Shown here piece after piece: positions 4,450 to 61,487 of a stretch of 64,000 nt of DNA. The position numbers and the translations under genes are program-made. Source of the stretch: an uncultured Acidobacteriota bacterium (lineage in GTDB: Bacteria > Acidobacteriota > Terriglobia > Acidiferrales > UBA7541); assembly GCA_963771905.1 (NCBI GenBank), contig CAVYVI010000014.1, positions 287,339 to 351,338 of the forward strand. The letters run 5' to 3'. The first letter of the stretch is position 1. Each line of letters begins with the position of its first letter. The notes below the pieces were generated by a model. That model did not search any database. It was given only the letters and a program-made list of their open reading frames with translations, and was not told where the DNA came from.

Positions 4450-4467
4450 TGCCGCAAAAATTCGCGA

Positions 4468-4785: not shown

Positions 4786-4837
4786 GCTACCTCCGTCGGG
4801 GTCACCCTATGCTGGCCGGGCTCCCTTACCCTTCGCG

Positions 4838-26169: not shown

Positions 26170-26210
26170 TCCTCGGCAGAACCGTGTCCCGGACGCAGAA
26201 AACAGAATTC

Positions 26211-26990: not shown

Positions 26991-26997
26991 ATAAATT

Positions 26998-37027: not shown

Positions 37028-37319
37028 CCTCCGCCGCCTTCCTGCCGTGTTCAGAAACTGGCAACATCTGTTGCAGGCGCACCTTGAGTGGAAGCGACGC
37101 GGTGCCAAAATGAACCGTTCGCCCACGACCTCCGCGTGATTGCCCAAAGTGATCGAGCGTATGCAACGTCATAGCTTTTCGCCGCCGGCAAGCCGCAGAT
37201 CCGGCCATCGAGTCTCTTGTGTGCGATTGCGTCCGATGCCACACCTGGAAGAAATCGCCACGCCCGGCAAACGTGCCAATCAGAGAAACGTGCGCGACAA
37301 ACGGATATAATCGTTCTGC

Positions 37320-37829: not shown

Positions 37830-37938
37830 CTAAGCGGAGCCGAATCTGCCGCGGCGCTGACGTGAGCGATCCCCGAGTCGCGTTCGACGCGAAGTGTGAT
37901 TCTCCGTGTCTATTCGTGGGAGTTACTCAGGAGTTCGC

Positions 37939-43482: not shown

Positions 43483-43541
43483 GGATTTGAAGCGCCGGCC
43501 GGCTGCAGAGCAGGAATGGCCGGGCGGCACAAAGAGAACCG

Positions 43542-44192: not shown

Positions 44193-47100
44193 GCGACGCA
44201 TTCAAGATTTTCGGCAATCCTCCCGACCGCGAGCACGAGGACGGAGAGCACGGCGAGACGATGGGGCGGCCCGCGGTGCGGACGCCTCTCGATTTGGCGG
44301 CGGCGCGCGCGAAGCTCGCGCAGGCCGGCGGACGGTATTTCTGGAAGAGCCTCGAAGAGCTGGCGGGCACGCCGGAAGCGGAAGCGTTCGAGCATCACGA
44401 GTTTCCGTACGATCCGGAAAAAGACGCGCGGAAGGAAGGAATCGGTCGGCGGGACATTTTGAAGTTGATGGCGGCGTCGGCGGCGCTTTCGGGGCTGAGC
44501 GCATGCACGAAATTGCCGGTGGAGAAAATCGTTCCGTATGTAAGGCCACCCGAGGAAATTATTCCGGGCAAGCCGCTGTTTTACGCGACGTCGATGCCCA
44601 CGGGGAATGGCGCGATCGGACTACTGGTGGAAAGCAACATGGGGCGGCCGACGAAGATCGAAGGGAATTCGGTGCATCCAGCGAGCCTGGGTGCGACGAA
44701 TATTACGGCGCAGGCGTCAGTGCTGACGCTGTACGATCCCGACCGCTCGCCGGTGGTGGTTCGTGAAGGCCGGATCAGCGATTGGGCGGCATTTTTGACG
44801 GCGCTTGGCAACGTGCGCGGCGATTGGGAGGAAAAGAAGGGCGGCGGGCTGCGGATTCTGACGGACGGAAGCACATCGCCGACGCTCGCGGCGCAGATGC
44901 GCGCGCTGCTCGAAAAATATCCGAACGCGAAATGGTACGCGCACGAGCCGTATGGGCCGTACAACCAGCGCGAAGGCGCGAAGCTGGCGTTCGGCCGCAA
45001 CGTGAATTCCGTTTATCACTTCGATCAAGCCGACGTGATCGCGTCGCTCGACGCCGACTTTTTATATGACGGCGCGACGAGCGTGCGCTACGCGCGGGAG
45101 TTTGCGGATCGCCGGCGAATCGAAAACGCGCAATCGAACATGAACCGGCTATACGTCGTCGAGAGCACGCCGACGAATACGGGTGCGATGGCCGATCATC
45201 GATTGGCGCTGCGCGCTTCCGAAGTGGGAGGATTTGCGCGAGCGTTGGCGGCGGCCCTTGGGCTGGAGGGTTACGCCGGCGCGGAGACAAAAGTGCCAGC
45301 GACGTGGCTTGCGGCGCTGGCGCGAGATATGCAGAAACATCGCGGCGCAAGCCTCGTGCTGGCGGGCGACGCGCAGCCGCCGGCCGTGCATGCGCTTGCG
45401 CATGCGATGAATCAGGCGCTCGGAAATGCCGGGAAGACGGTGGAGTTTACCGAACCGATCGAGGTGAGCCCGGAAATGGACGGTCTCGCCGAGCTCGCGA
45501 AGGAAATGGAAGCCGGGGAAGTCACCACGCTCGTGATTCTTGGGAGCAATCCGGCGTACACGGCAGCAAGTGATTTGGAGTTCCCGGCAAAGCTTCTGAA
45601 GGTCGGGCTGCGGATTCATTCGGGGCTCTACAACGACGAGACCGCCGAGCTGTGTCATTGGCATATTCCGGAAGCGCATTATCTCGAATCCTGGAGCGAT
45701 GCACGGGCCTACGACGGAACCGTAGGAATCGTGCAGCCACTGATCGCGCCGCTTTACGATGGAAAATCGGCGCACGAAATGATCGCGGCGATTGCGGGCG
45801 TGAACGGAAAAACGGGCCACGATCTGGTCCGCGATTATTGGAAGACCCAGCGTCCCGCGAAAGAAACCGACAAGGCGTTCGAGGATTTCTGGGAAACGAC
45901 GCTGCATGACGGCGTGATGGCGAATACCGCGCTTCCCGCGCGCGCCATCAGCGCGAACGTCGATGCCGCCAAGCTGCCCGCGACAAAGCGATCAGCGAAT
46001 GCTAACGCGCTGGAAGTTGTGTTCCGTGCGGACCCGACGATCGGGGATGGCCGCGACGCGAACAACGGCTGGCTGCAGGAATTGCCCAAGCCGCTGACCA
46101 AGTTGACATGGGACAACACCGTCATCGTGAGCCCGGCGACGGCGGAACGACTAGGGGTCACAAACTCCGACGTGGTTACGCTGTTTTTGGGTGAGCGAGC
46201 GCTCAACGGCCCGATCTGGATCATGCCCGGTCACGCAAATGATTCGGTGACGATTCATTTGGGCTACGGACGCCGCCGCGCCGGGCACCTCGGCACGGGA
46301 ATCGGATTCAACGCCTATTCGATTCGCACGTCGGAAGCGCCGTGGATCGCGAGCGGCGTGCGCGTGGAAAAGACGGGGCGGACGCTGGAGCTGGCCACGA
46401 CGCAGCACCATCAAACGATCGAGCGTGGCGGCCGCGAGATCGAGGAAGAAAGCTCTGCGGCGGAGGCACGCGACATTTTGCGCGTGGGCACGCTCGACGA
46501 ATTTCGCAAGAAGCCGGATTTTGCCGCGGATTCCGAAGAGATCACCAAGGTGGTATCGCTGTATCCGCCGTATAAATATGACGGCTACGCGTGGGGAATG
46601 TCGGTCGATTTGAATAGCTGCACGGGCTGCGGCGCGTGCGTGCTCGCCTGCCAGTCGGAAAATAATATTGCGGTGGTGGGAAAAGAAGAGGTGATCGCGG
46701 GGCGGCAGATGCAATGGATCCGCGTCGACAACTATTTCCGCGGGGATCTCGACAATCCGGAATCGTATTACCAGCCGGTCCTCTGCCAGCACTGCGAAAA
46801 TGCGCCGTGCGAACTGGTTTGCCCCGTGGGAGCAACGATGCACAGCGACGAGGGCTTGAACGAGATGATTTACAACCGGTGCGTGGGGACGCGCTACTGC
46901 TCGAATAACTGCCCATACAAAGTGCGGCGATTCAATTTCAAGTTGTTCTCGGATTGGACGACACCGAGTCTTTTCGGCCTGCGCAATCCGAATGTGACGG
47001 TGCGGAGCCGCGGGGTGATGGAGAAGTGCACGTACTGCGTGCAGAGAATCAACGCGGCCAAGATCCAATCGGAGGAAGAGAATCGTCAGGTGCGCGATGG

Positions 47101-47299
47101 CGAAATTGTAACGGCGTGCGAAGCGGTGTGTCCGTCGCGGGCGCTGATCTTCGGCAACATCAACGATCCGAACAGCCAGGTGGCAAAGCTGAAAGCGCAA
47201 ACACGAAATTACAGCCTGCTGGGCGAATTGAATACGCGACCGCGAACAACGTACCTGGCGAAGCTGCGGAATCCGAATCCGGAGATTGCAGAAGCGTAG
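44189..47299 (+). CDS. actB: Alternative complex III subunit ActB (molybdopterin-oxidoreductase-like domain fused to a 4-cluster Fe-S domain)
   Basis: ATG 44189 overlaps the actA stop (ATGA). Internal Tat-like motif GIGRRDILKLMAASAALSGLSAC. C-terminal ferredoxin-type Cys clusters (CTGCGACVLAC, CQHCENAPCELVCP, CVGTRYCSNNCP, CTYCVQR). Confidence 0.9.
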   Translation: MSDAFKIFGNPPDREHEDGEHGETMGRPAVRTPLDLAAARAKLAQAGGRYFWKSLEELAGTPEAEAFEHHEFPYDPEKDARKEGIGRRDILKLMAASAALSGLSACTKLPVEKIVPYVRPPEEIIPGKPLFYATSMPTGNGAIGLLVESNMGRPTKIEGNSVHPASLGATNITAQASVLTLYDPDRSPVVVREGRISDWAAFLTALGNVRGDWEEKKGGGLRILTDGSTSPTLAAQMRALLEKYPNAKWYAHEPYGPYNQREGAKLAFGRNVNSVYHFDQADVIASLDADFLYDGATSVRYAREFADRRRIENAQSNMNRLYVVESTPTNTGAMADHRLALRASEVGGFARALAAALGLEGYAGAETKVPATWLAALARDMQKHRGASLVLAGDAQPPAVHALAHAMNQALGNAGKTVEFTEPIEVSPEMDGLAELAKEMEAGEVTTLVILGSNPAYTAASDLEFPAKLLKVGLRIHSGLYNDETAELCHWHIPEAHYLESWSDARAYDGTVGIVQPLIAPLYDGKSAHEMIAAIAGVNGKTGHDLVRDYWKTQRPAKETDKAFEDFWETTLHDGVMANTALPARAISANVDAAKLPATKRSANANALEVVFRADPTIGDGRDANNGWLQELPKPLTKLTWDNTVIVSPATAERLGVTNSDVVTLFLGERALNGPIWIMPGHANDSVTIHLGYGRRRAGHLGTGIGFNAYSIRTSEAPWIASGVRVEKTGRTLELATTQHHQTIERGGREIEEESSAAEARDILRVGTLDEFRKKPDFAADSEEITKVVSLYPPYKYDGYAWGMSVDLNSCTGCGACVLACQSENNIAVVGKEEVIAGRQMQWIRVDNYFRGDLDNPESYYQPVLCQHCENAPCELVCPVGATMHSDEGLNEMIYNRCVGTRYCSNNCPYKVRRFNFKLFSDWTTPSLFGLRNPNVTVRSRGVMEKCTYCVQRINAAKIQSEEENRQVRDGEIVTACEAVCPSRALIFGNINDPNSQVAKLKAQTRNYSLLGELNTRPRTTYLAKLRNPNPEIAEA

Positions 47300-47347
47300 A
47301 AGCGAGGGAATTTCCGGCGGCGCGGAGAGTGCGCCGCATACGAGGAA

Positions 47348-47884
47348 ATGAAAAAGATACCGATTTACGGATTGCTGGCGGAGTTCGAGACGCCGGAAGA
47401 GCTGCTGGCGGCGGCGGAGCGCGCGCAGCTCGAAGGCTACCGGCGTATGGATGCGTTCACACCCATGCCGGTGGAAGGCCTTGCCGACGCGGTAGGATTC
47501 CATCATACGATTTTGCCGGTGATTGTGTTTTTTGGCGGGCTATTCGGGTGCATCGGCGGTTTTTTTCTCCAGTATTATCCGAACGTCATCGGATTTCCGC
47601 TGAACATCGACGGGAAACCTCACAACAGCTGGCCCGCGTTCATTCCAATTACGTTCGAGATGACCATATTATTCGCGGCGTTGGCCGCTGTATTCGGAAT
47701 GCTGGCGATGAACGGTCTGCCGACACCGCATCACCCGATTTTCAACGTTCCGCGATTCGAGCTGGCGTCGCGCGACCGATTCTTTTTGTGCATCAAGGCG
47801 CGGGACAAGAAATTCGATCGCGAGAAGACGAAGCTATTTTTGGAGAGCCTAAAGCCGCACGGCGTATATGACATTGAAGCGTAA
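47348..47884 (+). CDS. actD: Alternative complex III subunit ActD (DUF3341)
   Basis: The IYGLLAEFETPEELLAAAERAQLEGYRRMDAFTPMPVEGL start is typical of ActD, and it has two TM helices. Confidence 0.85.
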   Translation: MKKIPIYGLLAEFETPEELLAAAERAQLEGYRRMDAFTPMPVEGLADAVGFHHTILPVIVFFGGLFGCIGGFFLQYYPNVIGFPLNIDGKPHNSWPAFIPITFEMTILFAALAAVFGMLAMNGLPTPHHPIFNVPRFELASRDRFFLCIKARDKKFDREKTKLFLESLKPHGVYDIEA

Positions 47885-48506
47885 GAGCGGATGGCGGGCA
47901 TGGCCGGCCGAGGCGCGCGCGCGGTGGCGCGGACGCACGGCGCTGGCCGCGGGCCTGGCGCTTGGCGCGATGGCGCTGGCGGGGTGCCGTTTGGACATGC
48001 AAGTCCAGCCGAAATACAAGACATACGATCCCAGCACATTTTTCGATGATGGGCGTTCGGCGCGGCAACCGGTTCCGGGGACAGTGGCGCGCGGAGAATT
48101 GGAAATCGACGATTATTTTTACAAGGGAAAAGTGGACGGGAAGGACGCTGATACGTTTCCGTTCCCGATCACGGCGAACGACATGCTGCGCGGTCAGCAG
48201 CGCTACAACATTTATTGCAGTCCGTGCCACGACTACACGGGCAGCGGGCGGGGAATGATTGTGCAGCGCGGATTTCCGCAGCCACCGTCTTACCACATCG
48301 ACCGTCTGCGCCAGGCGCCGGTGGGCCACTTCTTCGACGTGATGACCAACGGATTCGGAGCGATGTACAGCTACGCGGCGCGCGTTTCGCCGGCGGACCG
48401 CTGGCGCATCGCGGCGTACATTCGCGCGCTTCAACTGGCCGAACATGCGACGCCGGAAGACGTTCCCGCCGACCAGCGGGCGAAATTGACGGTGCAACAA
48501 CCATGA
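47868..48506 (+). CDS. actE: Alternative complex III subunit ActE (monohaem cytochrome c lipoprotein)
   Basis: Lipobox LAGC, a single CSPCH haem motif, and a downstream Met region (FGAMYSYA). It overlaps actD by 17 nt. Confidence 0.85.
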   Translation: MTLKRKSGWRAWPAEARARWRGRTALAAGLALGAMALAGCRLDMQVQPKYKTYDPSTFFDDGRSARQPVPGTVARGELEIDDYFYKGKVDGKDADTFPFPITANDMLRGQQRYNIYCSPCHDYTGSGRGMIVQRGFPQPPSYHIDRLRQAPVGHFFDVMTNGFGAMYSYAARVSPADRWRIAAYIRALQLAEHATPEDVPADQRAKLTVQQP

Positions 48507-49678
48507 CGAGCGCGGAAGCACTCGGCCCCGTCTTCGATCGCGCGCAGAGAAGCGCGCTGACGGTGGGCGTGCTGGGGTTCGTGACCACCGGCATTCTCTA
48601 TCTGCGGAATCCGGAGCAGTTTTTCCGGTCGTATCTTCTGGCGTTCGTGTTCTGGATTGGATTTCCGCTGGGCTGCACGGCGATCGTGATGCTGCACCAT
48701 CTCACGGGCGGCGATTGGGGATTGCCGATTCGCAGGCCGCTTGAGGCAGGCACACGGACGTTTCCGCTGATGCTGATTCTGTTCATTCCGCTCTTGTTTG
48801 GATTGAAGACGCTGTTTCCATGGACGAATCTCGCACTTGTCAACAGCGATCCCAAACTGAAAATCAAAGAGTTCTATCTGAATCTGCATTTCTTTCTGAT
48901 CCGCGCCGTGATTTATTTTCTAATCTGGCTGGCGCTGAGCTACTTCCTCAACAAGTGGTCGGAAGAGCAGGACCGTACGGGCGATCCTGCGCTTGCGAGG
49001 CGACTGGAAGGAATCAGCGGGCCGGGGTTGATCCTCTACGGAATCACGGTGACATTCGCGTGCGTGGATTGGGTGATGTCGCTCGAGCCGCACTGGTTCT
49101 CGACGATATTCGGGATGATCTTCATGATGGTGGAGGTATTGGGCGCGATGGCGCTGGTGATCGTGGTGGCGCGGATATTGGCGAAGTACGAGCCGTTCTC
49201 GAAAGCGGTTTCAGCGGACCAATTCAACGATCTGGGCAACCTGCTTCTCACTTTCGTGATGCTCTGGGCTTATCTGTCATTTTCGCAATTCCTGATCATC
49301 TGGTCGGGGAATTTGAGGGAGGAGATTTCCTGGTACGTGGTGCGAGCGGCAGGGGGCTGGGCGGCGCTGGCGATGTTTCTGATCAGTTTTCACTTTGCGA
49401 TTCCGTTCCTGCTGCTGTTGCAACGCGGCATCAAACGGCGCATGAGGCATCTTGCGATGGTTGCCGGAGTGCTGATTTTCATCAGCTTCGTGGATGTGTT
49501 CTGGCTGGTGGTCCCGGCATTCGAGAGGGAAGGGCCGCGACTTCATGCGCTCGATCTGACCGCGCCGATCGCGATTGGCGGACTGTGGGTGGCGGCGTTT
49601 ATATGGCAATTGAAGCGCCGGTCGCTGCTGCCGCTGCACGACCCGCGATTCGAGGGAGTGGTGCAACATGGCGATTGA
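48503..49678 (+). CDS. actF: Alternative complex III subunit ActF (second NrfD-like membrane subunit)
   Basis: ATG 48503 overlaps the actE stop (ATGA). The product is polytopic, 391 aa (HHLTGGDWG, FSQFLIIWSGNL). Confidence 0.85.
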   Translation: MTSAEALGPVFDRAQRSALTVGVLGFVTTGILYLRNPEQFFRSYLLAFVFWIGFPLGCTAIVMLHHLTGGDWGLPIRRPLEAGTRTFPLMLILFIPLLFGLKTLFPWTNLALVNSDPKLKIKEFYLNLHFFLIRAVIYFLIWLALSYFLNKWSEEQDRTGDPALARRLEGISGPGLILYGITVTFACVDWVMSLEPHWFSTIFGMIFMMVEVLGAMALVIVVARILAKYEPFSKAVSADQFNDLGNLLLTFVMLWAYLSFSQFLIIWSGNLREEISWYVVRAAGGWAALAMFLISFHFAIPFLLLLQRGIKRRMRHLAMVAGVLIFISFVDVFWLVVPAFEREGPRLHALDLTAPIAIGGLWVAAFIWQLKRRSLLPLHDPRFEGVVQHGD

Positions 49679-50135
49679 TCCCCATACATCGCCGGGCGGG
49701 ACCGGGAATCCCGGCTACGAAACGCGGGACGCGAACGTCACGAGCCTGCTGAAGTTTGGCCTGTGGATGGCGCTGATACTAATTTCCATCGGTTTCGGGA
49801 TGAAATGGATGTTCGGCTATTTCGCGCACACGCAGAACCTGGGGCCGGCGGTGTCGCCATTCGAGAACACGCGAACGCTGCCGCCGCTGCCGCGGCTGCA
49901 GACGACGCCACAGAAGGACATTCACGATTACTGGGAAGCGGAGCAGGACGAATTGAACAGTTACGGCTGGGTCGACCGGCAGAACGGCATCGTGCGGATC
50001 CCGATCGATCGCGCGATGCGGCTGGTTCTCGAGCGCGGGCTGCCCGCGCGCGCAGGCGGCAAGGCGCCGGAGGAGACGCCGAATTCGGCCGCGCCGATCG
50101 ATAAAGGAAGATCGGCGGGAGGGACCCAACAATGA
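49668..50135 (+). CDS. Single-TM protein encoded between actF and SCO1 (uncharacterised; possible ACIII/oxidase accessory subunit)
   Basis: The start overlaps the actF end by 11 nt, and its stop overlaps the SCO1 start (ATGA). One TM helix (LLKFGLWMALILISIGFGMKWMF), then a soluble part of about 90 aa. Confidence 0.6.
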   Translation: MAIDPHTSPGGTGNPGYETRDANVTSLLKFGLWMALILISIGFGMKWMFGYFAHTQNLGPAVSPFENTRTLPPLPRLQTTPQKDIHDYWEAEQDELNSYGWVDRQNGIVRIPIDRAMRLVLERGLPARAGGKAPEETPNSAAPIDKGRSAGGTQQ

Positions 50136-51043
50136 GTGGCGCGCGGAAGCTGCGAAGATTTCTGATGGCGGGCGTTTTTGCGGCGACGTTCTGGAGCAAC
50201 GCCTTGAACGCGCAGATCAATTACGCGCAGCCACCGGCGGATGATTCCGCACCGGTGCAGGCCGCGGGCGTGCGGCCGGAATTGCTGCGCGATGTGTCGC
50301 TCGAACAGAAACTCGATGCGCCGATTCCGCCGGATTTGAAGTTCCGTGACGAAAAAGGGAAAAGCGTCGAGCTGCGGCAATTTTTCGGAAGCAAGCCCGT
50401 GATTTTGGCGCTTGTGTATTACCAGTGCCCGATGCTGTGCACGGAAGTGCTGAACGCGATGACCCGCAGCCTCAAGGAAATTTCGCTCGACATGGGGAAG
50501 GACTACGAGGTGGTTACGGTGAGCTTCGATCCGACCGACCGGCCGATTGAAGCAGAAGCCAAGCGCGCGCTCTACACGGGAATGTACAACCGAGCGGGAG
50601 CGCAAGACGGCTGGCATTTTCTCACCGGCGAGCAGCCGCAAATCAAGGCGCTGGCGGATGCGGTTGGATTTCACTATGCGTTCGATCCGATTTCGAAGCA
50701 GTACGCGCATCCGAGCGGAATCATGGTGCTGACGCCGGAAGGAAAACTCGCGCGCTATTTTTACGGAGTGACGTACCCGCAGCGGGATTTGCGGCTGGCG
50801 TTGGTGGAAGCCTCGGCAGGGAAGATTGGTTCGCCGGTGGATGCGATTCTTTTGTACTGCTATCACTACGACCCGCTGACGGGGAAATACGGGCTCGTCA
50901 TTTCGCGAGTGATTCAGATCGCGGGACTGTTGACCGTCCTCGGAATGGCGATTCTGATTTTTGTTTTGTTCCGGCAGGAGAATTACGGCTCGGTGGGACG
51001 CGGCGGCCAGAAGCGAGGGCGGGAACTCCACGGGCATGTTTAA
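50132..51043 (+). CDS. SCO1/SenC copper chaperone
   Basis: Thioredoxin-fold CxxxC motif YYQCPMLCTEVLN and a downstream His (YAHPSGIMVL). It has an extra C-terminal TM segment. Confidence 0.85.
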   Translation: MSGARKLRRFLMAGVFAATFWSNALNAQINYAQPPADDSAPVQAAGVRPELLRDVSLEQKLDAPIPPDLKFRDEKGKSVELRQFFGSKPVILALVYYQCPMLCTEVLNAMTRSLKEISLDMGKDYEVVTVSFDPTDRPIEAEAKRALYTGMYNRAGAQDGWHFLTGEQPQIKALADAVGFHYAFDPISKQYAHPSGIMVLTPEGKLARYFYGVTYPQRDLRLALVEASAGKIGSPVDAILLYCYHYDPLTGKYGLVISRVIQIAGLLTVLGMAILIFVLFRQENYGSVGRGGQKRGRELHGHV

Positions 51044-52016
51044 TTTTTTAGTGGCGGGCGTTGCGATAGCGGGGCCGGGCTTTCCGCTCAAGCCCGTGGA
51101 CGCGTCGACGACGGCATCGAGCGTCGACCATCTTCAGTACGCGCTGACGGCCATCACGCTGTTTTTTACAATCGTCATTTTTGCGGTGATTTTTTATTTC
51201 ATGGTGAAGTACCGGCGGCGCTCGGAAGATGATCGTCCGCCGGAGATTGAGATGTCGTTGCCGCTTGAAATCACATGGACGGTGATTCCCACGCTGATTT
51301 GCGCCGTCATCTTCGTGTGGAGCTCAAGCGTCTATTTCCGGGATTCGCGGCCGCCAAACGCTTCGATGGAGATTTTTGTAGTCGGAAAGCAATGGATGTG
51401 GCACCTGCAGCATCCCGAGGGTCCGCGGGAGATCGACGAGCTGCACGTTCCGGTCGGCGTTCCGGTGAAGCTGACGATGACGTCGGAAGATGTGATCCAC
51501 GATTTTTTTATTCCCGCGTTCCGGATCAAGAAGGATGTGTTGCCGGGGCGGTATTCGTCGATCTGGTTCCAAGCGACGAAGGTCGGCACGTATCATTTTT
51601 TCTGCGCACAGTATTGCGGAGCGGAGCATTCCGGGATGATCGGCTGGGTGTACGTGATGACGCCGACGGACTATGCGAACTGGCTGAGCGGCGGCGGGGC
51701 ACACGAATCGATGGCGCAGGCGGGCGAGCGGCTGTTCACGCAACTCGGCTGCGTCACGTGCCACGTCGCCAATGGCACGGGTCGCGGGCCGGTTTTGCAG
51801 GGACTCTACGGGCATCCCGTGAAATTGCGGAGCGGCGAAACGAGGATGGTGGATGAGACTTACATTCGTCAAGCCATCGTGAATCCAAACTCGATGCCGC
51901 TGCCGAATTACGCGCCTGTGATGCCGACGTTTCAGGGCCAGGTGAATGAAGAGCAGGTGCTGCAGTTGATCGCGTACGTGAAGTCGCTGGGTGTGGAAGA
52001 AAGGAAGTCGAAATGA
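51036..52016 (+). CDS. coxB: Cytochrome c oxidase subunit II with a fused C-terminal cytochrome c domain (caa3-type)
   Basis: Two N-terminal TM helices. CuA site HDFFIP...[13 protein letters not shown]-terminal CVTCH haem c motif. The start at ATG 51036 overlaps the SCO1 end by 8 nt. Confidence 0.9.
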
Positions 52017-53641
52017 GCACGGCCGTGCTGGAAGCGCCCGCCGAATCGCGCGTGAATTATTTGAACGCGAGCTACGGCATCAAGTCGTGGCTCTTCACGA
52101 CAGACCACAAGCGCATCGCGCTGCTGTATCTGGCGTCGATCACGTTTATGTTTTTTGTAGGCGGGGCCGCAGCGGTTTTGATGCGGATGAACCTGATCGA
52201 GCCGCAGGGCGCGCTGGTACAACCGGAAACGTACAACAAGCTGTTTACGATTCACGGCGTGGTGATGGTGTTTTTTTTCCTGATTCCGTCGATACCCGCG
52301 GTGCTGGGGAATTTTCTGGTGCCGATGATGATCGGGGCGCGGGACCTCGCATTTCCGCGGCTCAACCTGCTGAGCTGGTACCTCTACATCGTGGGCGCAT
52401 CGTTCACGCTGTACGCAATCCTGGCTGGCGGCGTGGACACCGGATGGACGTTCTATACGCCGTACAGCAGCACGTACTCGCATACGCATGTGATTGCCAT
52501 GGCCGTCGGGATATTCATCACCGGATTTTCTTCGATTTTGACGGGCCTGAATTTCATCGTCACGATTCACATGATGCGCGCGCCGGGGCTGACGTGGTTC
52601 CGGCTGCCGCTATTTATCTGGTCGATGTACGCGTCGAGCATCATTTTCATTCTCGGGACGCCGGTGATCGCGATCACGCTGTTTCTTCTGGCGCTCGAGC
52701 GGCTGCTGCACGTGGGAATTTTCGATCCCGCGATCGGCGGCGACCCTCTTTTGTTCCAGCATCTGTTCTGGTTTTATTCGCATCCCGCGGTGTACATCAT
52801 GATTCTGCCGGGGATGGGCGTGGTGAGCGAGCTGATTACGGCATTCTCGAAGAAGAAAATTTTCGGATACAAATTCGTGGCGTTTTCAAGCATGGCGATT
52901 GCGGTCCTGAGCTTTCTGGTTTGGGGCCACCACATGTTCGTCTCGGGCCAGTCGATCTATGCGGGACTGATTTTTTCGGTGCTGAGCTTCCTCGTGGCGA
53001 TTCCTTCGGCGATCAAGGTATTCAATTGGACGGCGACTCTTTACAAAGGATCGATTTCGTACGATGCGCCGATGCTGTACGCGCTGGGCTTCATCGGGCT
53101 GTTTACGATGGGCGGGTTGACGGGGCTGTTCCTGGCGTCGCTGGCAACGGATGTTCATTTGAGCGGAACGTACTTCATCGTGGCGCACTTCCACTACATC
53201 ATGGTCGGCGGCGCGGTGATGGCGTATCTCGGCGGGATTCATTTCTGGTGGCCGAAAATCACGGGCCGGATGTATCCGGATGGATGGGCGCGGTTCGCCG
53301 CGTTGATCATTTTCGTCGGCTTTAATTTGACGTTTTTCCCGCAATTCGTGCTCGGGTATTTGGGAATGCCGCGGCGGTACGCCGTATATCCCGCGGAATT
53401 TCAAGTGCTAAACGTGATGTCCTCGGCGGGCGCATCGATTCTGGCAGTAGGCTATCTGATCCCGCTGATTTATTTGCTCTGGTCGATTCGTTACGGGCCG
53501 GTGGCCGGCGGAAATCCGTGGGGAGCGAAGGGTCTGGAATGGCAGACGGCTTCGCCGCCGCCAACAGAGAACTTCGAGGAAATACCGATTGTGACGGAAG
53601 AGGCATACGCGTACGCCGAGCCGGAGACATCGCATGTCTGA
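52013..53641 (+). CDS. coxA: Cytochrome c oxidase subunit I (A-type haem-copper oxidase)
   Basis: [15 protein letters not shown] (CuB His plus cross-linked Tyr context), VWGHHMF (CuB His pair) and AHFHY (haem ligands). The ATGA overlaps the coxB stop. Confidence 0.95.
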
Positions 53642-54344
53642 ACTCGCGTCGACAGGAATGCCTTCGAGCGGCGGGCACGCCGCGGGTGTCAGCGTGCCCG
53701 GGCTGCGGCATCACTTTGAGGACGCCGAGCAGCAGCGTGAAGCGGGCACGCTGGGGATGTGGGTATTCCTGGCAACGGAGATTCTTTTCTTTGGAGGACT
53801 GTTCGCGGGCTATGCGATTTACCGGTCGCTCTATTTGCCGGGATTTGAAGCGGGCAGCCGGCTTTTGAACGGAGCGTTGGGCGCGACGAACACGGCGGTG
53901 CTGATCGGGAGCAGCCTGACGATGGCCATGGCCGTGCATTCGGCGCAGACGGGCAAACGCAAAGCGCTCGTGGCGTACCTGATCGTCACGATGATTTTGG
54001 GCGCGGCGTTTTTGGGGATCAAGTATCACGAGTGGGCGCATCACTGGGACGTTTCGCTGGTGCCCGGCTTGCGGTTCGCGCCGACGGAAGCGATTCCGGG
54101 GAATGCGCCACTTGGGTCCGTGGAAATGTTCTTCTGCTTTTATTTTTTCATGACCGGACTGCACGCACTGCACATGATCATCGGGCTCGGGATAATGACG
54201 GTGATGACGGTTATGGCGTGGCGGGGAAAGTTTTCGCCGGAGTACTATACGCCGATCGAGGTGAGCGGGCTGTACTGGCACTTCGTCGACATCGTGTGGA
54301 TATTTCTGTTTCCGCTACTCTATCTCATCGGAGGGCGCTACTGA
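53634..54344 (+). CDS. coxC: Cytochrome c oxidase subunit III
   Basis: Typical [21 protein letters not shown], and C-terminal [16 protein letters not shown]. Confidence 0.9.
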
Positions 54345-54676
54345 TGTCGGAGCACGTCGTTCCGGTTCGCGTGTACGTGAGCGTGTTTGTGGCGCTGCTG
54401 TGCCTCACGGCCTTGACGACCGGCGTCGCGTATATCGATCTCGGCGCGCTCAATACGGTGGCGGCGCTCGGGATCGCCGGCGTGAAAATGCTTCTGGTGG
54501 TGCTGTTCTTCATGCACGTCCGCTACAGCTCGGGTATGACGAAGATCGTGATTCTCGCGGCAATCTTCTGGCTCGCGCTGCTGATTTCGATGACGCTTGC
54601 CGACGTCTATACGCGGCATTGGACGCCGGGTTCGAGCGGCTGGGGTCCATCGATTTCGTCGAGTCAGAATCCGTAG
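54344..54676 (+). CDS. coxD: Cytochrome c oxidase subunit IV (prokaryotic CoxD/CtaF-like)
   Basis: 110 aa with three TM helices and the MLLVVLFFMH motif. ATG 54344 overlaps the coxC TGA by 1 nt. The track ORF starts earlier, at 54032. Confidence 0.8.
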   Translation: MSEHVVPVRVYVSVFVALLCLTALTTGVAYIDLGALNTVAALGIAGVKMLLVVLFFMHVRYSSGMTKIVILAAIFWLALLISMTLADVYTRHWTPGSSGWGPSISSSQNP

Positions 54677-56646: not shown

Positions 56647-56844
56647 TCACGCGGGCAGCTTGCCGCGGAGCAACAGGATCAGCCACATCAGCGTAACTCC
56701 GAAACACACGCCGCAACCGACGAGTTGAACGACATCCACGGCGTGATACGCCTGGAATCGGGGTCTTTCGATCACCTGGAATAGCCCGATCAGGCCGATG
56801 AACAAAGCAGCACCAGGAAATACGATTCTGCCTCTTGAAGGCAT
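56647..56844 (-). CDS. Possible small 2-TM membrane protein (65 aa)
   Basis: The C-terminal 65 codons of track ORF 56647..57279 lie outside neighbouring genes and encode two hydrophobic helices (FPGAALFIGLIGLF, VGCGVCFGVTLMWLILLL). The rest of that ORF is antisense to the gene at 56984. Confidence 0.35.
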   Translation of the reverse strand: MPSRGRIVFPGAALFIGLIGLFQVIERPRFQAYHAVDVVQLVGCGVCFGVTLMWLILLLRGKLPA

Positions 56845-56983
56845 GCTGTCCTCCCAAGCACTCTCAGGAATTACGCATTTGGCTCCGAGAACGGCAGGAA
56901 TTGTACACCCGCTTCGCCCGCTCAACGGCGTTGACGTATCATGGGACGTCAATTCGCGTAGGTCGGAAAGTGCAGGAGAGCGG

Positions 56984-57970
56984 ATGAAGCCATCCCCAGG
57001 GGTGATACTCGCGGCAGTGATCGTGCTGCTCGGCAGCGCAGGCGCGATTTTGATCGGCGTGCTGATCTTGGTGACGCGGGTTGTGGCGCCCGCGGGCTTG
57101 CCGGCGAACGTGGAGACCCCGGCGACGCTCTTTCTGGCTGGCGCGATGTACGTAGGATTCGGTGCATGGGGCACGGCGAGCGGCGCGGGGCTATTACGAT
57201 TGCGGCCTTGGGCACGGATTTCGATGCTGGTGTTCAGCGTGTTTGTTGTGGCCATTTGCATTTTCGGGCTGGCCGGCATCTCGATGGTTCAGTTTCCCAT
57301 GCCGGCAAATGCGCCGGGGCTCGACCCTGCGTTGGTGAAGAAGATCGTGGCGGGCGTCTTCGCGATCCCGATCGCGGTGGGAATTTGGTGGATGCTTTTG
57401 TTTACGCGCAGCAGCGTGAAGGAGCAATTCGGTGCGGCGCCGGCCTCGATGGAGAAGCGGTACGCGGCGCCGGCTGCCTCGCCGATCTGGCGCGTCGTGG
57501 AAGATGGACGCAAGAGGCGGCCCATCAGTATTACGGTGATTGCGTGCCTGTATTTGTTTGGCGCTGCGACCGTACCTTTCGGAATGTCGTCCACGTTTCC
57601 TACTTTCCTATTCGGATTCATTCTGTGGGGGCACAAGGCGGCCATCTTCAAGATCGCCACTTTTATCGCGAGCGCGTATCTCGGCGTCGAGCTTCTGAGG
57701 CTCGAGCCGCGCGCGCGGATCCTGGCCATTTGCTATTCGCTGTTCGGGATCGCGAACAGTTTTTCGCTCGTGTTCTCGCCGTCGCTGGCCGCTTATGTTT
57801 CGGCGTTTATGCAATCGTCGCAATCGTCACAATCCGGCGAAGTGCTGCCGGTTTCTTCGATGATTTCGTTCATGAGGATCGGAATGCTGGGGAGTATCGC
57901 GTTTACTGTCGTGATTCTCTGGCTGCTGATTCGAGAGAAACCCTCGTTCGAGACTCCGCCCAAGACGTAA
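56984..57970 (+). CDS. Polytopic membrane protein with an internal duplication (hypothetical)
   Basis: The start is at MKPSPGVILAAVIVLL. Two halves share GAGLLRLRPWARISMLVFSVF / GVELLRLEPRARILAICYSLF. No family recognised. Confidence 0.6.
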   Translation: MKPSPGVILAAVIVLLGSAGAILIGVLILVTRVVAPAGLPANVETPATLFLAGAMYVGFGAWGTASGAGLLRLRPWARISMLVFSVFVVAICIFGLAGISMVQFPMPANAPGLDPALVKKIVAGVFAIPIAVGIWWMLLFTRSSVKEQFGAAPASMEKRYAAPAASPIWRVVEDGRKRRPISITVIACLYLFGAATVPFGMSSTFPTFLFGFILWGHKAAIFKIATFIASAYLGVELLRLEPRARILAICYSLFGIANSFSLVFSPSLAAYVSAFMQSSQSSQSGEVLPVSSMISFMRIGMLGSIAFTVVILWLLIREKPSFETPPKT

Positions 57971-57992: not shown

Positions 57993-59210
57993 TCAGTAAA
58001 AAGCGCGGAAGGCCAGGACAGCGTTGAGGCCGCCGAAGGCGAACGAATTGGAGAGCGCGTATTCCACACGCAGTGCGCGCGGCTGATTCGGAATGTAGTC
58101 GAGATCGCATTCGGGATCAGCTTCGGTGAAATTCGCGGTCGGCGGAAGAATTGCGTCGCGGAGCGCGAGGACCGTGGCGATGGCTTCTATCGCGCCGGCG
58201 CCGCCGAGTGCATGGCCATGCATGGATTTCGTCGAGCTGACGGCCAGGCGAGCAGCGTGCTCGCCAAAAACTTCGTGAATCGCACGCGTTTCGGTTGGAT
58301 CGTTACCGGGCGTCCCGGTGCCGTGGGCATTGACGTAGCCGATTTGTTCGGGAGCCAGGTTTGCATCGCGCAGCGCCAAGCGAATGGCACGCGAGGGGCC
58401 CTCGACCGTCGGCTGCGTGAGGTGGTGCGCGTCCGACGACATTCCGAAGCCGACGACTTCGGCGTAGATTTTGGCGCCGCGCGCTTGCGCCGCGTCGAGC
58501 GGCTCGAGGACGAGAATCGCTCCCCCCTCACCAAGCACGAGTCCCCGGCGATCCTTGCAGAACGGGCGGCATGTATCGGGCGCCATGACCCGCATCGCTT
58601 CCCAGGCTTTCAGGAAGCCCATGCTGAACGGAGCTTCGCTGCCGCCGGCGAGGGCGAGATCCGCATCGCCCCGGCGGACCATTTGAAACGCCATGCCAAT
58701 GGCATGATTCGAGGACGAGCATGCCGTGGAAATGGTGAATGCCGGGCCGGTGGTCCCGAATTCCATCGAGATATGACTGGTGGCGGCGTTGGACATCGTC
58801 CGGGGGATGGAGAGTGGATGGAGACGCCCACGGCCGCGCAGATAGAGGTCTTCGAAGCCGGAGTCCGTGGTGATTTGGCCGCCCGAACCGGTGCCGCAAA
58901 CGACGGCGGTGCGCTCGCGCAAGGCGGCGGAGAAGGTTATGCCGGAATCCGCGACGGCTTCGCGGGCGGCGACGACGCCAAATTGGGCGAAGCGGTCGAG
59001 ATGATCCTGGCGGCTGCCTTCGAAGTGCGCGCCGGGATCGTAGCCGCGGACTTCCGCGGCAACCTGAAAACGGAGCTTTGAGGAATCGACGGCAGTGATC
59101 GGCCCAATCGAGGAAATGCCGCGCTGGAGGGAATTCCAAGCTGTGACGGCGTTCAAACCAGCCGCGCAGATGACGCCCAGGCCGGTGACGGCGACTCTGC
59201 GGTCGGCCAT
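57993..59210 (-). CDS. Beta-ketoacyl-ACP synthase (KAS II / NodE-like elongating ketosynthase)
   Basis: Cys-His-His triad contexts TACSSSNHAIG, SDAHHLTQP and VNAHGTGTPGND, plus C-terminal SNSFAFGGLNAVL. Its start is 2 nt after the ACP stop. Confidence 0.9.
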   Translation of the reverse strand: MADRRVAVTGLGVICAAGLNAVTAWNSLQRGISSIGPITAVDSSKLRFQVAAEVRGYDPGAHFEGSRQDHLDRFAQFGVVAAREAVADSGITFSAALRERTAVVCGTGSGGQITTDSGFEDLYLRGRGRLHPLSIPRTMSNAATSHISMEFGTTGPAFTISTACSSSNHAIGMAFQMVRRGDADLALAGGSEAPFSMGFLKAWEAMRVMAPDTCRPFCKDRRGLVLGEGGAILVLEPLDAAQARGAKIYAEVVGFGMSSDAHHLTQPTVEGPSRAIRLALRDANLAPEQIGYVNAHGTGTPGNDPTETRAIHEVFGEHAARLAVSSTKSMHGHALGGAGAIEAIATVLALRDAILPPTANFTEADPECDLDYIPNQPRALRVEYALSNSFAFGGLNAVLAFRAFY

Positions 59211-59212
59211 TT

Positions 59213-59494
59213 TCAGTTTGCGGGCGCCGTGGAGCGAATCGAGGAGCCGCCGTTAGCGGAATCCAGGACCTTGCGCACGCCTTCGACGATATCGTTGACG
59301 GTGCGGATGCTGCGGGCTTCGTCGTCGGAAATGGAGATGTTGAATTTGCTTTCGAGCTCGAAGAGCAGGGTGAAGGTGTCGAGAGAATCGATGGCGAGGT
59401 CCTGCAGTGTGGAATCGAGCTTGATGGTGTCGGTGGGAATGCGCTTCACGGACGCGAGGGTGGAGATAACCTTGTCCGCGATGTCGTCGGGCAT
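59213..59494 (-). CDS. Acyl carrier protein (dedicated, NodF-like context)
   Basis: LQDLAIDSLDTFTLLFELESKF carries the DSL phosphopantetheine-attachment motif. The start is taken at MPDDIADK (59494). Confidence 0.85.
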   Translation of the reverse strand: MPDDIADKVISTLASVKRIPTDTIKLDSTLQDLAIDSLDTFTLLFELESKFNISISDDEARSIRTVNDIVEGVRKVLDSANGGSSIRSTAPAN

Positions 59495-59821
59495 GCTATA
59501 TCCTCTTGGCTCTGAAATGTGCACCGCTGCCGGGAACCAGCTTCGCGGCGGTCCGCTGGCAGAAATATCCCTGCCGCCCTCAGCAGCATTCGGAAAGGAA
59601 GCTAGCCGAAAGCGGCACTAAAAGCAATGGATACGCGCTTCAGGGAGCCGCAAGCATAGGATACCGCAACTCGACGCGGGCTGCCCACCGTTTCACCCGG
59701 AGCGCCGCGCTCCAAAAGTAAAGGCTGAAGTTCCAGCCGAATTTGATATCCTTGCGGCCTGGTACCGGCAGAAGAGAGCGCATTCCTAGCCAGTCCCGAC
59801 CTTGTTCCTCGGAGAAGCCGA

Positions 59822-60907
59822 ATGACATCTGGAGAGCGCACGAATGGCAATGGCGCGACAGCAACGGTTGTCGCGACGTCCACTGCCGTGCCGTCACATC
59901 TTCTATCCAGGGAACAGGTCAAGTCGCACATGCAGCGGGTCTTTCAGCTCGACGGGAGCCGGCTGGACGGGATGATGGCCATTGTAGACAACTCCTGCGT
60001 CGAAAAGCGATACACAATTTTTCCGCTCGAATACACGATCGAGCCCCGGCCGCTGACGCAGACGAGTATCGAGTACCAGCAGCATGCGATACGACTTGGC
60101 GAGCAGGTGGCGAAGGAGTGCCTCGAGCGGGCGGGGATGGAGCCCGAGGACATCGACTGGATTGTCACCGTTTCATGCACGGGATTCATGATTCCGTCGC
60201 TCGATGCACATTTGGTGGAGACCATGGGTTTCCGCCGCGATTGCCGCCGGCTGCCGATCACCGAGCTGGGTTGCGCGGCGGGAGCTTCGGCGTTTGCGCG
60301 GGCGCACGAATTCCTGAAAGCGGGGCCGGGCAAGAATGTACTTTTGGTTTCGGTTGAGCTGCCGAGCATGACGTTTCAGCGGCGGAGTCTGACGCCGGCA
60401 AATATCATCTCGAGCATTCTTTTCGGGGATGGAGCGGCGGCCGCGATCATCACGTCGGAGCCGCGACGCGGCCCGCAAATCGTGACCACGGAAACGTATC
60501 TCTTCCCGGATTCGCACGATGCCATGGGCTTCGACCTGATGGACGACGGATTTCATATCGTGTTGTCCAAAGACGTCCCCGAAATGATTCGGGGAAAGAT
60601 CAAAGCGCTGGTGGACCAGTTTTTGGGCAAGCACGGAATGCGGCGCGAGGATATTACCGCGTACGTTCTTCATCCGGGCGGCCGGAAGCTGATGGACTAC
60701 ATGGAAGAAGAACTCGATCTGTGCCGGTGCAAGACACAGCCTTCCTGGGACATTCTCTCGGAATACGGAAACCTCTCGAGCGCCTCCGTGCTGTTCGTGC
60801 TGAACGACTGGCTGACGAAGCAGAAAGTGGAAACGGGCCAGCACGGGTTGATGGCGGCGTTCGGTCCGGGGTTCAGCGCGGAACTGCTGCTCCTTCGTTG
60901 GACTTGA
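59822..60907 (+). CDS. Type III polyketide synthase (chalcone/stilbene synthase superfamily)
   Basis: Catalytic Cys (VSCTGFMIPSLD), His (LHPGGRKLMD) and Asn (YGNLSSASV), plus C-terminal GPGFSAE. Confidence 0.9.
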   Translation: MTSGERTNGNGATATVVATSTAVPSHLLSREQVKSHMQRVFQLDGSRLDGMMAIVDNSCVEKRYTIFPLEYTIEPRPLTQTSIEYQQHAIRLGEQVAKECLERAGMEPEDIDWIVTVSCTGFMIPSLDAHLVETMGFRRDCRRLPITELGCAAGASAFARAHEFLKAGPGKNVLLVSVELPSMTFQRRSLTPANIISSILFGDGAAAAIITSEPRRGPQIVTTETYLFPDSHDAMGFDLMDDGFHIVLSKDVPEMIRGKIKALVDQFLGKHGMRREDITAYVLHPGGRKLMDYMEEELDLCRCKTQPSWDILSEYGNLSSASVLFVLNDWLTKQKVETGQHGLMAAFGPGFSAELLLLRWT

Positions 60908-60914
60908 AGCGAAG

Positions 60915-61487
60915 ATGCCTGCCAGTGTTGCCGCGTATCTGGTCCTTCTTGTTCTGGTCGGAGTGCTGCGCCTCGTCGAATTAAAAATCTCGCAGAGGAA
61001 TCGGCGCAGTATGTCGGATCGCGGCGCCGAGAAAGTAAGCGAGCCGGTTTTCCGGTGGATGGTGCTGGTGCATACCGGCGTTCTGATTTCTGCGGGGGCG
61101 GAAGTACTCGTGTTGCACCGCCCGCTGATTCCGGGACTCGCGGTGGCGGCTTTGGGCGTGTTCCTGTTTGCGAATGCGCTTCGCTGGTGGGTGATACGCA
61201 CGCTCGCGAGTCACTGGAACGTGCAGATCATGGCGTCGGCGAAACTCGGCGTCGTGAGCAGCGGGCCGTATCGATGGGTGCGCCATCCGAATTATCTCGC
61301 CGTGGTTCTCGAACTGCTTTCGCTGCCGCTGATTCATACGGCGTGGATTACGGCGATCTGGGCAACGCTCGGGAATCTGTGGGTTCTAAAGCGGCGCATC
61401 GCCGTCGAAGAAGAAGTGCTGATGGCGAGTCCGGTCTACCGGACGACGATGGGATCGAAGCCGCGATTTCTGCCGGGGCTTTTCTAG
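60915..61487 (+). CDS. Isoprenylcysteine carboxyl methyltransferase (ICMT)-family membrane methyltransferase
   Basis: Polytopic, 190 aa, with GPYRWVRHPNYLAVVLELLSLPL (ICMT/PEMT-type SAM-binding region). It starts 7 nt after the PKS stop. Confidence 0.8.
   Translation: MPASVAAYLVLLVLVGVLRLVELKISQRNRRSMSDRGAEKVSEPVFRWMVLVHTGVLISAGAEVLVLHRPLIPGLAVAALGVFLFANALRWWVIRTLASHWNVQIMASAKLGVVSSGPYRWVRHPNYLAVVLELLSLPLIHTAWITAIWATLGNLWVLKRRIAVEEEVLMASPVYRTTMGSKPRFLPGLF

What the first reader, a model, noticed from the sequence alone, without database searches (positions are those of the whole stretch)
57993..61487. Divergent biosynthetic cluster: dedicated ACP + KAS (NodF/NodE-like) facing a type III PKS + ICMT-type methyltransferase
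On the minus strand an ACP (DSL motif) is followed 2 nt later by a Cys-His-His elongating ketosynthase. On the plus strand, across a 327-bp divergent region, a type III PKS with a complete Cys-His-Asn triad is followed 7 nt later by an ICMT-family membrane methyltransferase. The PKS + ICMT-methyltransferase pair is the known phenolic-lipid module (B. subtilis BpsA/BpsB alkylpyrone methyl ethers, S. griseus SrsA/SrsB alkylresorcinols). Coupling it to a private ACP/KS pair suggests a specialised acyl-ACP starter handed directly to the type III PKS. Azotobacter ArsA/ArsD feeding ArsB/ArsC is a precedent, but that uses a type I FAS rather than discrete NodF/NodE-like proteins. If so, the product would be a methylated alkylresorcinol or alkylpyrone membrane lipid with an unusual chain. 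I do not know of this combination being characterised in this lineage.
Basis: partly seen in the sequence, partly recalled or inferred. Interest (0 to 1): 0.65.

Follow-up and report, generated by a model that had tools for sequence, protein, structure and literature searches.

The report
Phenolic-lipid PKS beside NodFE-like ACP/KS
A soil acidobacterium carries a common two-gene module for methylated phenolic membrane lipids back-to-back with a second, non-housekeeping acyl carrier protein and ketosynthase pair; the two recur together in related genomes but each also occurs alone, so a hand-over of a special fatty chain between them is plausible but unproven.

Summary
The plus-strand pair (type III PKS, then an ICMT-family methyltransferase) is a member of the very abundant Bps/Srs-type alkylpyrone/alkylresorcinol module.

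The minus-strand ACP-KS pair is not housekeeping acpP-fabF. It scores below the NCBIfam equivalog cut-offs and sits outside any fab cluster. Its KS falls in a clade of stand-alone ACP-KS pairs that includes real NodE (100% bootstrap).

Evidence on coupling is mixed.
- For: the back-to-back arrangement persists wherever the PKS is at least 68% identical. It recurs in L187 in an unrelated genomic context (PKS 55% identical, with YceI and an FAD monooxygenase added). Two more same-contig co-occurrences were inferred.
- Against: orthologous ACP-KS pairs (KS 66-71% identical) sit next to the same cox operon with no PKS. Related PKS-ICMT modules (58-63%) occur with no ACP/KS nearby.

The partnership is therefore recurrent but dispensable. 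I put acyl-ACP hand-over at about 0.45 and mere neighbours at about 0.40. No transcript data exist for this locus. Interest is moderate: at most this is a new variant of ACP-fed type III PKS systems.

The parts
57993..59210 (-). NodE/FabF-like elongating beta-ketoacyl-ACP synthase (Cys-His-His), 405 aa
   Evidence: ORF. Pfam ketoacyl-synt N and C. NCBIfam fabF equivalog 478 bits against a cut-off of 493.75. 40% identical to Vibrio FabF and 50% to S. fredii NodE. Falls in the stand-alone-pair clade at 100% bootstrap.
59213..59494 (-). Dedicated acyl carrier protein (DSL phosphopantetheine site), 93 aa; stop codon lies 2 nt before the KS start
   Evidence: PP-binding E 2e-10. TIGR00517 acpP 55 bits against a cut-off of 70.45. 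Only 38% identical to Vibrio AcpP over 60 aa, whereas canonical AcpPs score 59-79%.
59599..59628 (-). Promoter-like element upstream of the ACP (ATTGCT-N17-TAGCTT in the window; TTTGCA-N17-TAggtT in relatives)
   Evidence: Conserved about 115-140 nt upstream of the ACP in L084, L088, L090, L092 and L097, and in the PKS-less L106. It fails the strict sigma-70 scan. Function is inferred only.
59735..59751 (+). Conserved PKS-proximal motif (AGCCGAATTTGATATCC), possibly the -10 region of the PKS operon
   Evidence: Conserved in L001, L084, L088 and L090 in the alignment. Not tested further.
59822..60907 (+). Type III polyketide synthase of the alkylpyrone/alkylresorcinol (BpsA/SrsA-like) kind, 361 aa, with Cys151-His284-Asn317
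   Evidence: Closest solved structures are S. coelicolor THNS 1U0M and M. tuberculosis PKS11. JGI names homologues at 59-80% identity 'alkylresorcinol/alkylpyrone synthase'.
60915..61487 (+). ICMT-family membrane O-methyltransferase (BpsB/SrsB-like), 190 aa, starting 7 nt after the PKS
   Evidence: Pfam ICMT E 5e-24 and PEMT E 3e-8. Found immediately downstream of the PKS in every related locus examined.

Best explanation
The locus holds two operons, each of a known kind, placed back to back. (1) PKS then ICMT-methyltransferase is a Bps/Srs-type phenolic-lipid module. The PKS loads a long fatty acyl thioester on Cys151, extends it with two or three malonyl-CoA units and cyclises it to an alkylpyrone or alkylresorcinol. 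The membrane methyltransferase then O-methylates the ring, giving a membrane phenolic lipid. (2) ACP then KS is a NodF/NodE-type pair, separate from the housekeeping FAS. It elongates an acyl chain on its own carrier protein and borrows the reductive enzymes of FAS II; a fabZ gene is present in the window. My working model is that the two form a recurrent but dispensable partnership. Where they are adjacent, as here, the PKS probably takes at least part of its starter directly from the private acyl-ACP, so the phenolic lipid carries that pair's particular chain. Shown: the gene identities, the motifs, the non-housekeeping status of the pair, and the neighbourhood pattern. Inferred: the hand-over itself, the chain type and the ring type.
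For: Non-housekeeping status: canonical FabFs (42-49% identical to this KS) always sit in plsX-fabH-fabD-fabG-acpP-fabF clusters, whereas this KS clade is always a stand-alone ACP-KS pair. The stand-alone-pair clade, which includes real NodE, has 100% bootstrap support. For coupling: (a) the four-gene block is intact in every relative with a PKS at least 68% identical, although the flanks gain and lose MgtC, DUF2127, a toxin-antitoxin-like pair and a TonB receptor. (b) In L187 the same KS orthogroup (73% identical) sits divergently from YceI-PKS-ICMT-FAD monooxygenase in a wholly different neighbourhood with no cox operon; identities to the window are PKS 55%, ICMT 64% and ACP 53%. (c) PKS P0242 and KS P0221 are both reported on a 434,625-bp contig, and PKS P0276 and KS P0232 on a 9,651-bp contig. 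(d) ACP-fed type III PKSs are established: ArsA feeds ArsB and ArsC, and Gcs and SCO7671 accept acyl-ACP (PMC6274091). (e) Lys289, five residues after the catalytic His, matches the proposed 'ACP-loading' signature (PMC9827899).
Against: Orthologous ACP-KS pairs (KS 66-71% identical) lie next to the same cox operon with no PKS or ICMT in 3.8-6.7 kb upstream (L099, L100, L102, L104, L106; L101 reads S58-cytC-ACP-KS). The pair therefore has a role that does not need an adjacent PKS. PKS-ICMT modules 58-63% identical have no ACP/KS within 6-8 kb (L004-L006, L095, L185). L095's PKS is sister to the ACP-linked L097 PKS at 85% bootstrap. Compared with L099, the window's lineage carries PKS-ICMT together with unrelated genes (sortilin/BNR, GNAT, pentapeptide) between the ACP and cytC, which looks like a multi-gene indel. 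The ACP-side promoter-like motif is also kept in the PKS-less L106, and no shared operator was found. The basic +5 residue is present in 110 of 120 homologues, so it does not discriminate, and a Lys-bearing homologue works with acyl-CoA alone (PMC9827899). The more distant ACP-KS pairs sit in other clusters and never next to a PKS.
Confidence: 0.45

Rival explanations
1. Neighbours only. The PKS-ICMT module draws on the general fatty acyl-CoA or acyl-ACP pool, as BpsAB and DquAB do. The NodFE-like ACP-KS pair makes a chain for some other lipid. The adjacency is inherited gene order: the pair is an old neighbour of the cox operon, and the PKS-bearing segment was inserted or retained beside it.
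For: Each half occurs alone in close relatives. ACP-KS-cox synteny spans the whole orthogroup whether or not a PKS is present, which shows that neutral gene order can persist at this level of divergence. The segment that differs between L001 and L099 also carries unrelated genes. The ACP-side promoter-like motif is independent of PKS presence. DquA makes alkylpyrones in E. coli and in vitro from acyl-CoA without a dedicated ACP (PMC9827899).
Against: The same pairing reappears in L187 with both flanks replaced and with a PKS module of different composition. Two further same-contig co-occurrences were inferred. Both units handle acyl thioesters, and they are arranged divergently across 150-700 bp, a layout often linked to co-regulation.
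Confidence: 0.4
2. The ACP-KS pair is functionally tied to the respiratory cluster (alternative complex III plus caa3-type oxidase) that it follows throughout this acidobacterial order, for example by supplying a lipid needed by the complexes. On this view the PKS module is incidental.
For: KS-cox adjacency is conserved in every 4-gene and PKS-less locus of the orthogroup except L187 and L106. In the window the ACIII and cox genes run uninterrupted up to about 3 kb from the KS.
Against: The KS and the cox operon are convergent and are separated by variable inserted genes (MgtC, DUF2127, a toxin-antitoxin-like pair), so they are not one transcription unit. L187 has the pair without cox. I know of no precedent for this, and the evidence is synteny alone.
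Confidence: 0.07
3. The ACP-KS pair is simply the organism's housekeeping acpP-fabF.
For: The KS is clearly FabF-like: 463 bits on NCBIfam subfamily PRK07314, above its cut-off of 387. I could not inspect the whole genome for a second pair.
Against: The KS scores below the fabF equivalog cut-off and the ACP below the acpP cut-off. No fabH, fabD or fabG is adjacent, whereas almost all of the roughly 55 FabF loci that matched the canonical FabF probe had AcpP just upstream and, where flank was available, usually FabG/FabD/FabH/PlsX as well. The ACP is 38% identical to Vibrio AcpP against 59-79% for canonical AcpPs. The KS clade is separated from fab-cluster FabFs at 100% bootstrap and includes NodE.
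Confidence: 0.03

Closest known systems
B. subtilis BpsA/BpsB and Sporomusaceae DquA/DquB (type III PKS plus ICMT-family methyltransferase; alkylpyrone and alkylresorcinol methyl ethers)
   Same: The two-gene architecture is the same: PKS immediately followed by an ICMT-family membrane methyltransferase. The Cys-His-Asn triad is present and the residue five positions after the catalytic His is basic. JGI assigns the alkylresorcinol/alkylpyrone synthase orthology to homologues (PMC9827899).
   Different: Those systems have no dedicated ACP or KS and use general fatty acyl-CoA pools. This locus is from an uncultured acidobacterium and its product is unknown.
   Same: PKS plus methyltransferase core. 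The related loci L187 and L095 add an FAD monooxygenase in the SrsC position.
   Different: The window has no flavin hydroxylase, so a quinone product is not expected here. The YceI found in L187 and L095 is not, to my knowledge, part of Srs.
Rhizobial NodF/NodE (dedicated ACP plus KS making polyunsaturated acyl chains for Nod factors)
   Same: A stand-alone ACP-KS pair with tightly spaced genes. The KS is in the same clade (100% bootstrap) and is 50% identical to S. fredii NodE.
   Different: There are no nod genes, no NodA acyltransferase and no chitooligosaccharide context. The acceptor of the acyl chain is unknown, with the type III PKS as one candidate.
Azotobacter ArsABCD; S. coelicolor Gcs (type III PKSs that take starters from acyl-ACP)
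   Same: The proposed logic is the same: an acyl chain built on a carrier protein is passed directly to the catalytic Cys of a type III PKS (PMC6274091).
   Different: Ars uses type I FAS proteins (ArsA, ArsD) and Gcs uses the housekeeping FAS ACP. Here the supplier would be a discrete NodFE-type KS and ACP. My searches of the held paper library did not turn up that combination.

Membership tests
Bps/Srs-type phenolic-lipid module | Type III PKS (chalcone synthase fold) with a Cys-His-Asn triad | tested here: met
   Pfam Chal_sti_synt N and C. C151, H284 and N317 are invariant.
Bps/Srs-type phenolic-lipid module | ICMT-family membrane methyltransferase encoded directly downstream on the same strand | tested here: met
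   7-nt gap. PF04140 E 5e-24. The pair is conserved in all related loci.
Bps/Srs-type phenolic-lipid module | Long-chain acyl starter, pyrone or resorcinol ring, and O-methylated product | not testable with these tools
   Needs expression and LC-MS. Ring type cannot be predicted reliably from sequence: DquA carries the 'resorcinol' Trp yet makes pyrones (PMC9827899).
Srs subtype (alkylquinone-forming) | Flavin-dependent hydroxylase (SrsC) in the operon | tested here: not met
   No FAD monooxygenase lies near the four genes in the window. One is present in L187 and L095.
NodF/NodE | Stand-alone ACP plus KAS-II-like KS pair, with the KS phylogenetically grouped with NodE and not with FabF | tested here: met
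   (100% bootstrap; 50% identity to NodE).
NodF/NodE | Part of a nod regulon, with the acyl chain delivered to a lipo-chitooligosaccharide by NodA | tested here: not met
   No nod genes appear in the window or in related loci.
Housekeeping AcpP-FabF | Reaches the NCBIfam equivalog cut-offs (TIGR03150, TIGR00517) | tested here: not met
   478.4 bits against 493.75, and 55.2 bits against 70.45.
Housekeeping AcpP-FabF | Embedded in a fabH-fabD-fabG-acpP-fabF cluster | tested here: not met
   None of these genes is adjacent. Canonical FabF loci in the same scan do have them.
Housekeeping AcpP-FabF | It is the only ACP/KS pair in the genome | not tested
The window does encode fabZ, so a normal FAS II is expected.
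ACP-fed type III PKS systems (Ars, Gcs, Cyl) | Direct transfer of the starter from a carrier protein to the PKS | not testable with these tools
   Only the non-discriminating K289 signature could be checked.
ACP-fed type III PKS systems (Ars type) | Type I FAS partners (ArsA, ArsD) | tested here: not met
   No multidomain FAS or PKS is present in the window.

The most novel reading that the evidence does not exclude
A starter-supply route for type III PKSs that my literature searches did not turn up: a discrete NodF/NodE-type ACP-KS pair builds an unusual (for example partly unsaturated or extended) acyl chain and passes it directly to a Bps/Srs-type PKS. This would give uncultured soil Acidobacteria a distinct class of methylated phenolic lipids. 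In the L187-type variant with an FAD monooxygenase the products would be alkylquinones. Their position next to an alternative complex III and cytochrome oxidase cluster might then reflect a role in the respiratory membrane.
Probability: 0.35. Interest if true: 0.65.

Novelty: new variant of a known kind. Interest (0 to 1): 0.45.

Why it matters
Bps/Srs-type PKS-methyltransferase pairs are among the most widespread bacterial type III PKS modules (more than 7,000 homologues). What sets the chain of their phenolic lipids is mostly assumed to be the general fatty-acid pool. If the NodFE-like pair really feeds the PKS, this would be a third way of supplying ACP-bound starters, after the type I FAS of Azotobacter and the FAAL-ACP systems of cyanobacteria and myxobacteria. 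It would also give a testable handle on membrane lipid chemistry in abundant, uncultured soil Acidobacteria. If the pair does not feed the PKS, the locus is an ordinary phenolic-lipid operon next to an uncharacterised but widely conserved ACP-KS pair. The function of that pair would then be the more interesting open question.

Tried and rejected
1. The species-representative genome scan seeded with a PKS alignment used motifs shared with FabH. Of its 80 loci, 76 were FabH and only L004-L007 were useful.
It did give a good gradient of PKS-less pairs and canonical fab clusters.
3. I tried to use the residue five positions after the catalytic His as a marker for ACP loading versus CoA loading. 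It is Lys or Arg in 110 of 120 homologues, including PKS-only loci, so I rejected it as evidence.
4. I looked for a shared operator or a sigma-70 promoter in the 327-bp divergent region. There is no consensus promoter and only one weak inverted repeat.
5. RNA and metatranscriptome evidence: only soil DNA runs hold the locus.
6. I tried to show genome-level co-occurrence through sequential GenBank accessions. Accessions were missing for almost all PKS clusters, so this was uninformative.
7. I tested whether the PKS-only clade hides a small carrier protein. Its conserved 95-aa ORF has no PP-binding signal and no DSL motif.
8. My first conclusion, that the adjacency was merely inherited synteny, was revised after L187.
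Full report
OBSERVATION. The KS is at 57993-59210 (-), 405 aa. The ACP is at 59213-59494 (-), 93 aa from its ATG. The type III PKS is at 59822-60907 (+), 361 aa. The ICMT-type methyltransferase is at 60915-61487 (+), 190 aa. The gaps are 2 nt, 327 bp and 7 nt, as described. Pfam assigns ketoacyl-synt N and C, PP-binding, Chal_sti_synt N and C, and ICMT/PEMT with E-values from 1e-10 to 1e-45. The KS Cys-His-His residues, the ACP DSL serine and the PKS Cys151-His284-Asn317 are all present. Public assemblies call the same genes; the window matches a soil Acidobacteriota MAG, GCA_049280375.1.

THE PKS-METHYLTRANSFERASE HALF. The PKS has more than 7,000 homologues at E below 1e-20, and JGI names many of them alkylresorcinol/alkylpyrone synthase. 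Its closest solved relatives are S. coelicolor THNS and the long-chain alkylpyrone synthase PKS11 of M. tuberculosis. In every related locus I examined, across PKS identities from 35% to 100%, an ICMT-family gene directly follows the PKS. This is the BpsA/BpsB and DquA/DquB architecture, in which the PKS makes long-chain alkylpyrones or alkylresorcinols and the ICMT-like enzyme O-methylates them (PMC9827899). The window has no SrsC-like flavin hydroxylase, so it is the Bps-like two-gene form. Ring type cannot be predicted from sequence.

THE ACP-KS HALF IS NOT HOUSEKEEPING. The KS scores 478 bits on the fabF equivalog, whose cut-off is 493.75. The ACP scores 55 bits on acpP, whose cut-off is 70.45. 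A metagenome scan seeded with the KS returned a useful gradient. Relatives 42-49% identical sit in canonical plsX-fabH-fabD-fabG-acpP-fabF clusters whose AcpP is 59-79% identical to Vibrio AcpP. Nearly all relatives that scored best against the window KS (most at 52% identity or above, plus L115 and L121 at 46-48%) form a stand-alone ACP-KS pair with a divergent ACP; for three short or truncated loci (L135, L141, L174) no ACP was detected in the flank available. The window's ACP is only 38% identical to Vibrio AcpP over 60 residues, and its KS is 40% identical to Vibrio FabF. The best plasmid hits are on rhizobial symbiosis plasmids. The S. fredii hit (50% identity) is a real NodF-NodE pair set among nodABC, nodD2 and nodA genes. 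In a neighbour-joining tree, all stand-alone-pair KSs, including NodE, form a clade with 100% bootstrap support, separate from fab-cluster FabFs. The window also encodes fabZ within a lipid A cluster, so a normal FAS II is expected elsewhere. 'NodF/NodE-like' is therefore a fair family-level description. The nod-specific features are absent.

ARE THE TWO HALVES COUPLED? EVIDENCE AGAINST. The ACP-KS pair is an old neighbour of the cytochrome oxidase operon. In L099 and L100 (KS 70% identical) and in L101, L102 and L104 (66-68%), the pair lies next to cox with no PKS or ICMT. L099 and L101 read peptidase S58, cytochrome c, ACP, KS, then cox in the opposite direction. In the window's lineage those same S58 and cytochrome c genes lie beyond a block made up of PKS, ICMT, sortilin/BNR, GNAT, pentapeptide and a hypothetical gene. 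The difference is therefore a multi-gene indel that includes unrelated genes. These PKS-less pairs form a 100%-supported clade inside the same orthogroup, which itself has 97% support. From the other side, PKS-ICMT modules 58-63% identical to the window's have no ACP or KS within 6-8 kb. L004-L006 and L185 show PKS-ICMT-x-x-SDR, and L095 shows PKS-ICMT-FAD monooxygenase-YceI. The small conserved ORF in the SDR-type loci is not a carrier protein. The more distant ACP-KS pairs sit in other clusters. One recurrent cluster holds a radical SAM enzyme, an MGDG-synthase-like glycosyltransferase, an AMP-ligase, a HAD phosphatase and an aminotransferase. A related cluster occurs on a Xanthomonas sacchari plasmid. 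None of these has a PKS. A promoter-like element upstream of the ACP is conserved in the 4-gene loci and also in the PKS-less L106, and no shared operator is visible.

EVIDENCE FOR. Within the cox-linked lineage, the four genes stay together from 100% down to 68% PKS identity, while genes on both sides come and go. More telling is L187 (KS 73% identical), where the ACP-KS pair again lies divergently from a PKS module, 150 bp away, in a completely different neighbourhood. There is no cox operon, and the flanks are a ferredoxin, a GH57 enzyme and rpsP/rimM. The module there is YceI-PKS-ICMT-FAD monooxygenase, with a PKS only 55% identical to the window's. Cross-matching contig lengths between the KS hit list and the list of L187-like PKSs gives two further same-contig co-occurrences, on a 434,625-bp contig and a 9,651-bp contig. 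In the PKS tree, the ACP-linked PKSs plus L095 group together, but with only 60% support. They are separate from the SDR-type PKS-only clade, which has 100% support. L097's PKS, which is ACP-linked and in the cox context, is sister to the unlinked L095 at 85%. ACP-fed type III PKSs have precedent in Ars and Gcs (PMC6274091). Lys289 fits the proposed ACP-loading signature, but that residue is basic in 110 of 120 homologues, so I give it no weight.

WEIGHING. The ACP-KS-cox synteny shows that gene order can persist neutrally at this level of divergence. This tempers the argument from conservation inside the cox-linked lineage. The L187 case, where both flanks are replaced and the module composition has changed, is harder to explain without selection for proximity. 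The persistence of intact ACP-KS pairs without a neighbouring PKS shows that the pair has a PKS-independent role, or else serves a PKS located elsewhere, which I could not check. I conclude that the partnership is recurrent but dispensable. I estimate about 0.45 that the PKS here draws its starter from the private acyl-ACP, and about 0.40 that the two are only neighbours. The remainder covers a respiration-linked role for the pair (0.07) and the housekeeping reading (0.03). No transcript data exist for this locus.

NOVELTY AND INTEREST. Each operon is a new member of a known kind. The combination of a Bps/Srs-type module with a discrete NodFE-type ACP/KS did not turn up in my searches of the held paper library. 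If functional, it would be a new variant of ACP-fed type III PKS systems. Interest is moderate (0.45). The locus is testable and sits in abundant uncultured soil bacteria, but the module is common and the key mechanistic step is unproven.

Noticed in passing
window 42100-54676: An alternative complex III gene set (NrfD/ActC-like at 42100-43482, a large Fe-S subunit at 43886-47299, ActD at 47348-47884) runs directly into SCO1-COX2-COX1-COX3-COX4 (50132-54676). The NodFE-like ACP-KS pair follows this respiratory cluster in almost every member of its orthogroup, whether or not a PKS is present.
   Followed up: partly
L098 5190-6129 and L183 5192-6299: The type III PKS is split into two ORFs by a frameshift in these two long-read assemblies. 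L184 encodes the identical KS protein but has an intact 368-aa PKS. This is either an assembly indel error or real recent pseudogenisation.
   Followed up: no
L109 and L111 (about 3000-11000); L182 (Xanthomonas sacchari plasmid NZ_CP010410.1, 438534-445750); L107: More distant NodFE-like ACP-KS pairs (KS 53-59% identical) sit in a recurrent uncharacterised cluster. L109 and L111 have a radical SAM enzyme, an MGDG-synthase-like glycosyltransferase, an AMP-ligase, a HAD phosphatase and a class III aminotransferase. Xanthomonas (L182) and L107 have an arginase-family gene and a DegT aminotransferase, and Xanthomonas also has a GNAT. This looks like an unknown amino- or glyco-lipid pathway.
   Followed up: partly
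L185 8001-12156, L186, L004-L006: The PKS-only clade keeps a conserved five-gene arrangement: PKS, ICMT, a 295-aa protein with a weak TPR signal, a 95-aa coiled-coil-like protein and an SDR/KR-type reductase. This suggests a different, reductase-containing variant of the phenolic-lipid module.
   Followed up: partly
window about 36000-38000: GC skew switches from negative to positive here, and the predominant coding strand switches from minus to plus at the same place, as expected at a replication origin. There is no dnaA gene nearby, and DnaA-box matches are at chance level (5 found, 4.6 expected) with none near the switch.
   Followed up: partly
window 25375-28904: A housekeeping lipid A cluster: fabZ (FabA-like domain), lpxA, lpxI and a GFO/IDH/MocA oxidoreductase. 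It shows that the organism has a standard type II FAS dehydratase.
   Followed up: no
window 56798-57970 (+): A 390-aa multi-pass membrane protein with no Pfam or NCBIfam match lies convergent with the KS, 22 nt away. It is absent from the same position in related 4-gene loci, which have DUF2127, a UPF0175/DUF3368 pair or nothing there. It is probably not part of the system.
   Followed up: partly
window 8525-11509 (-): A large (994-aa) Ser/Thr protein kinase fused to TPR repeats. It is unrelated to the finding.
   Followed up: no
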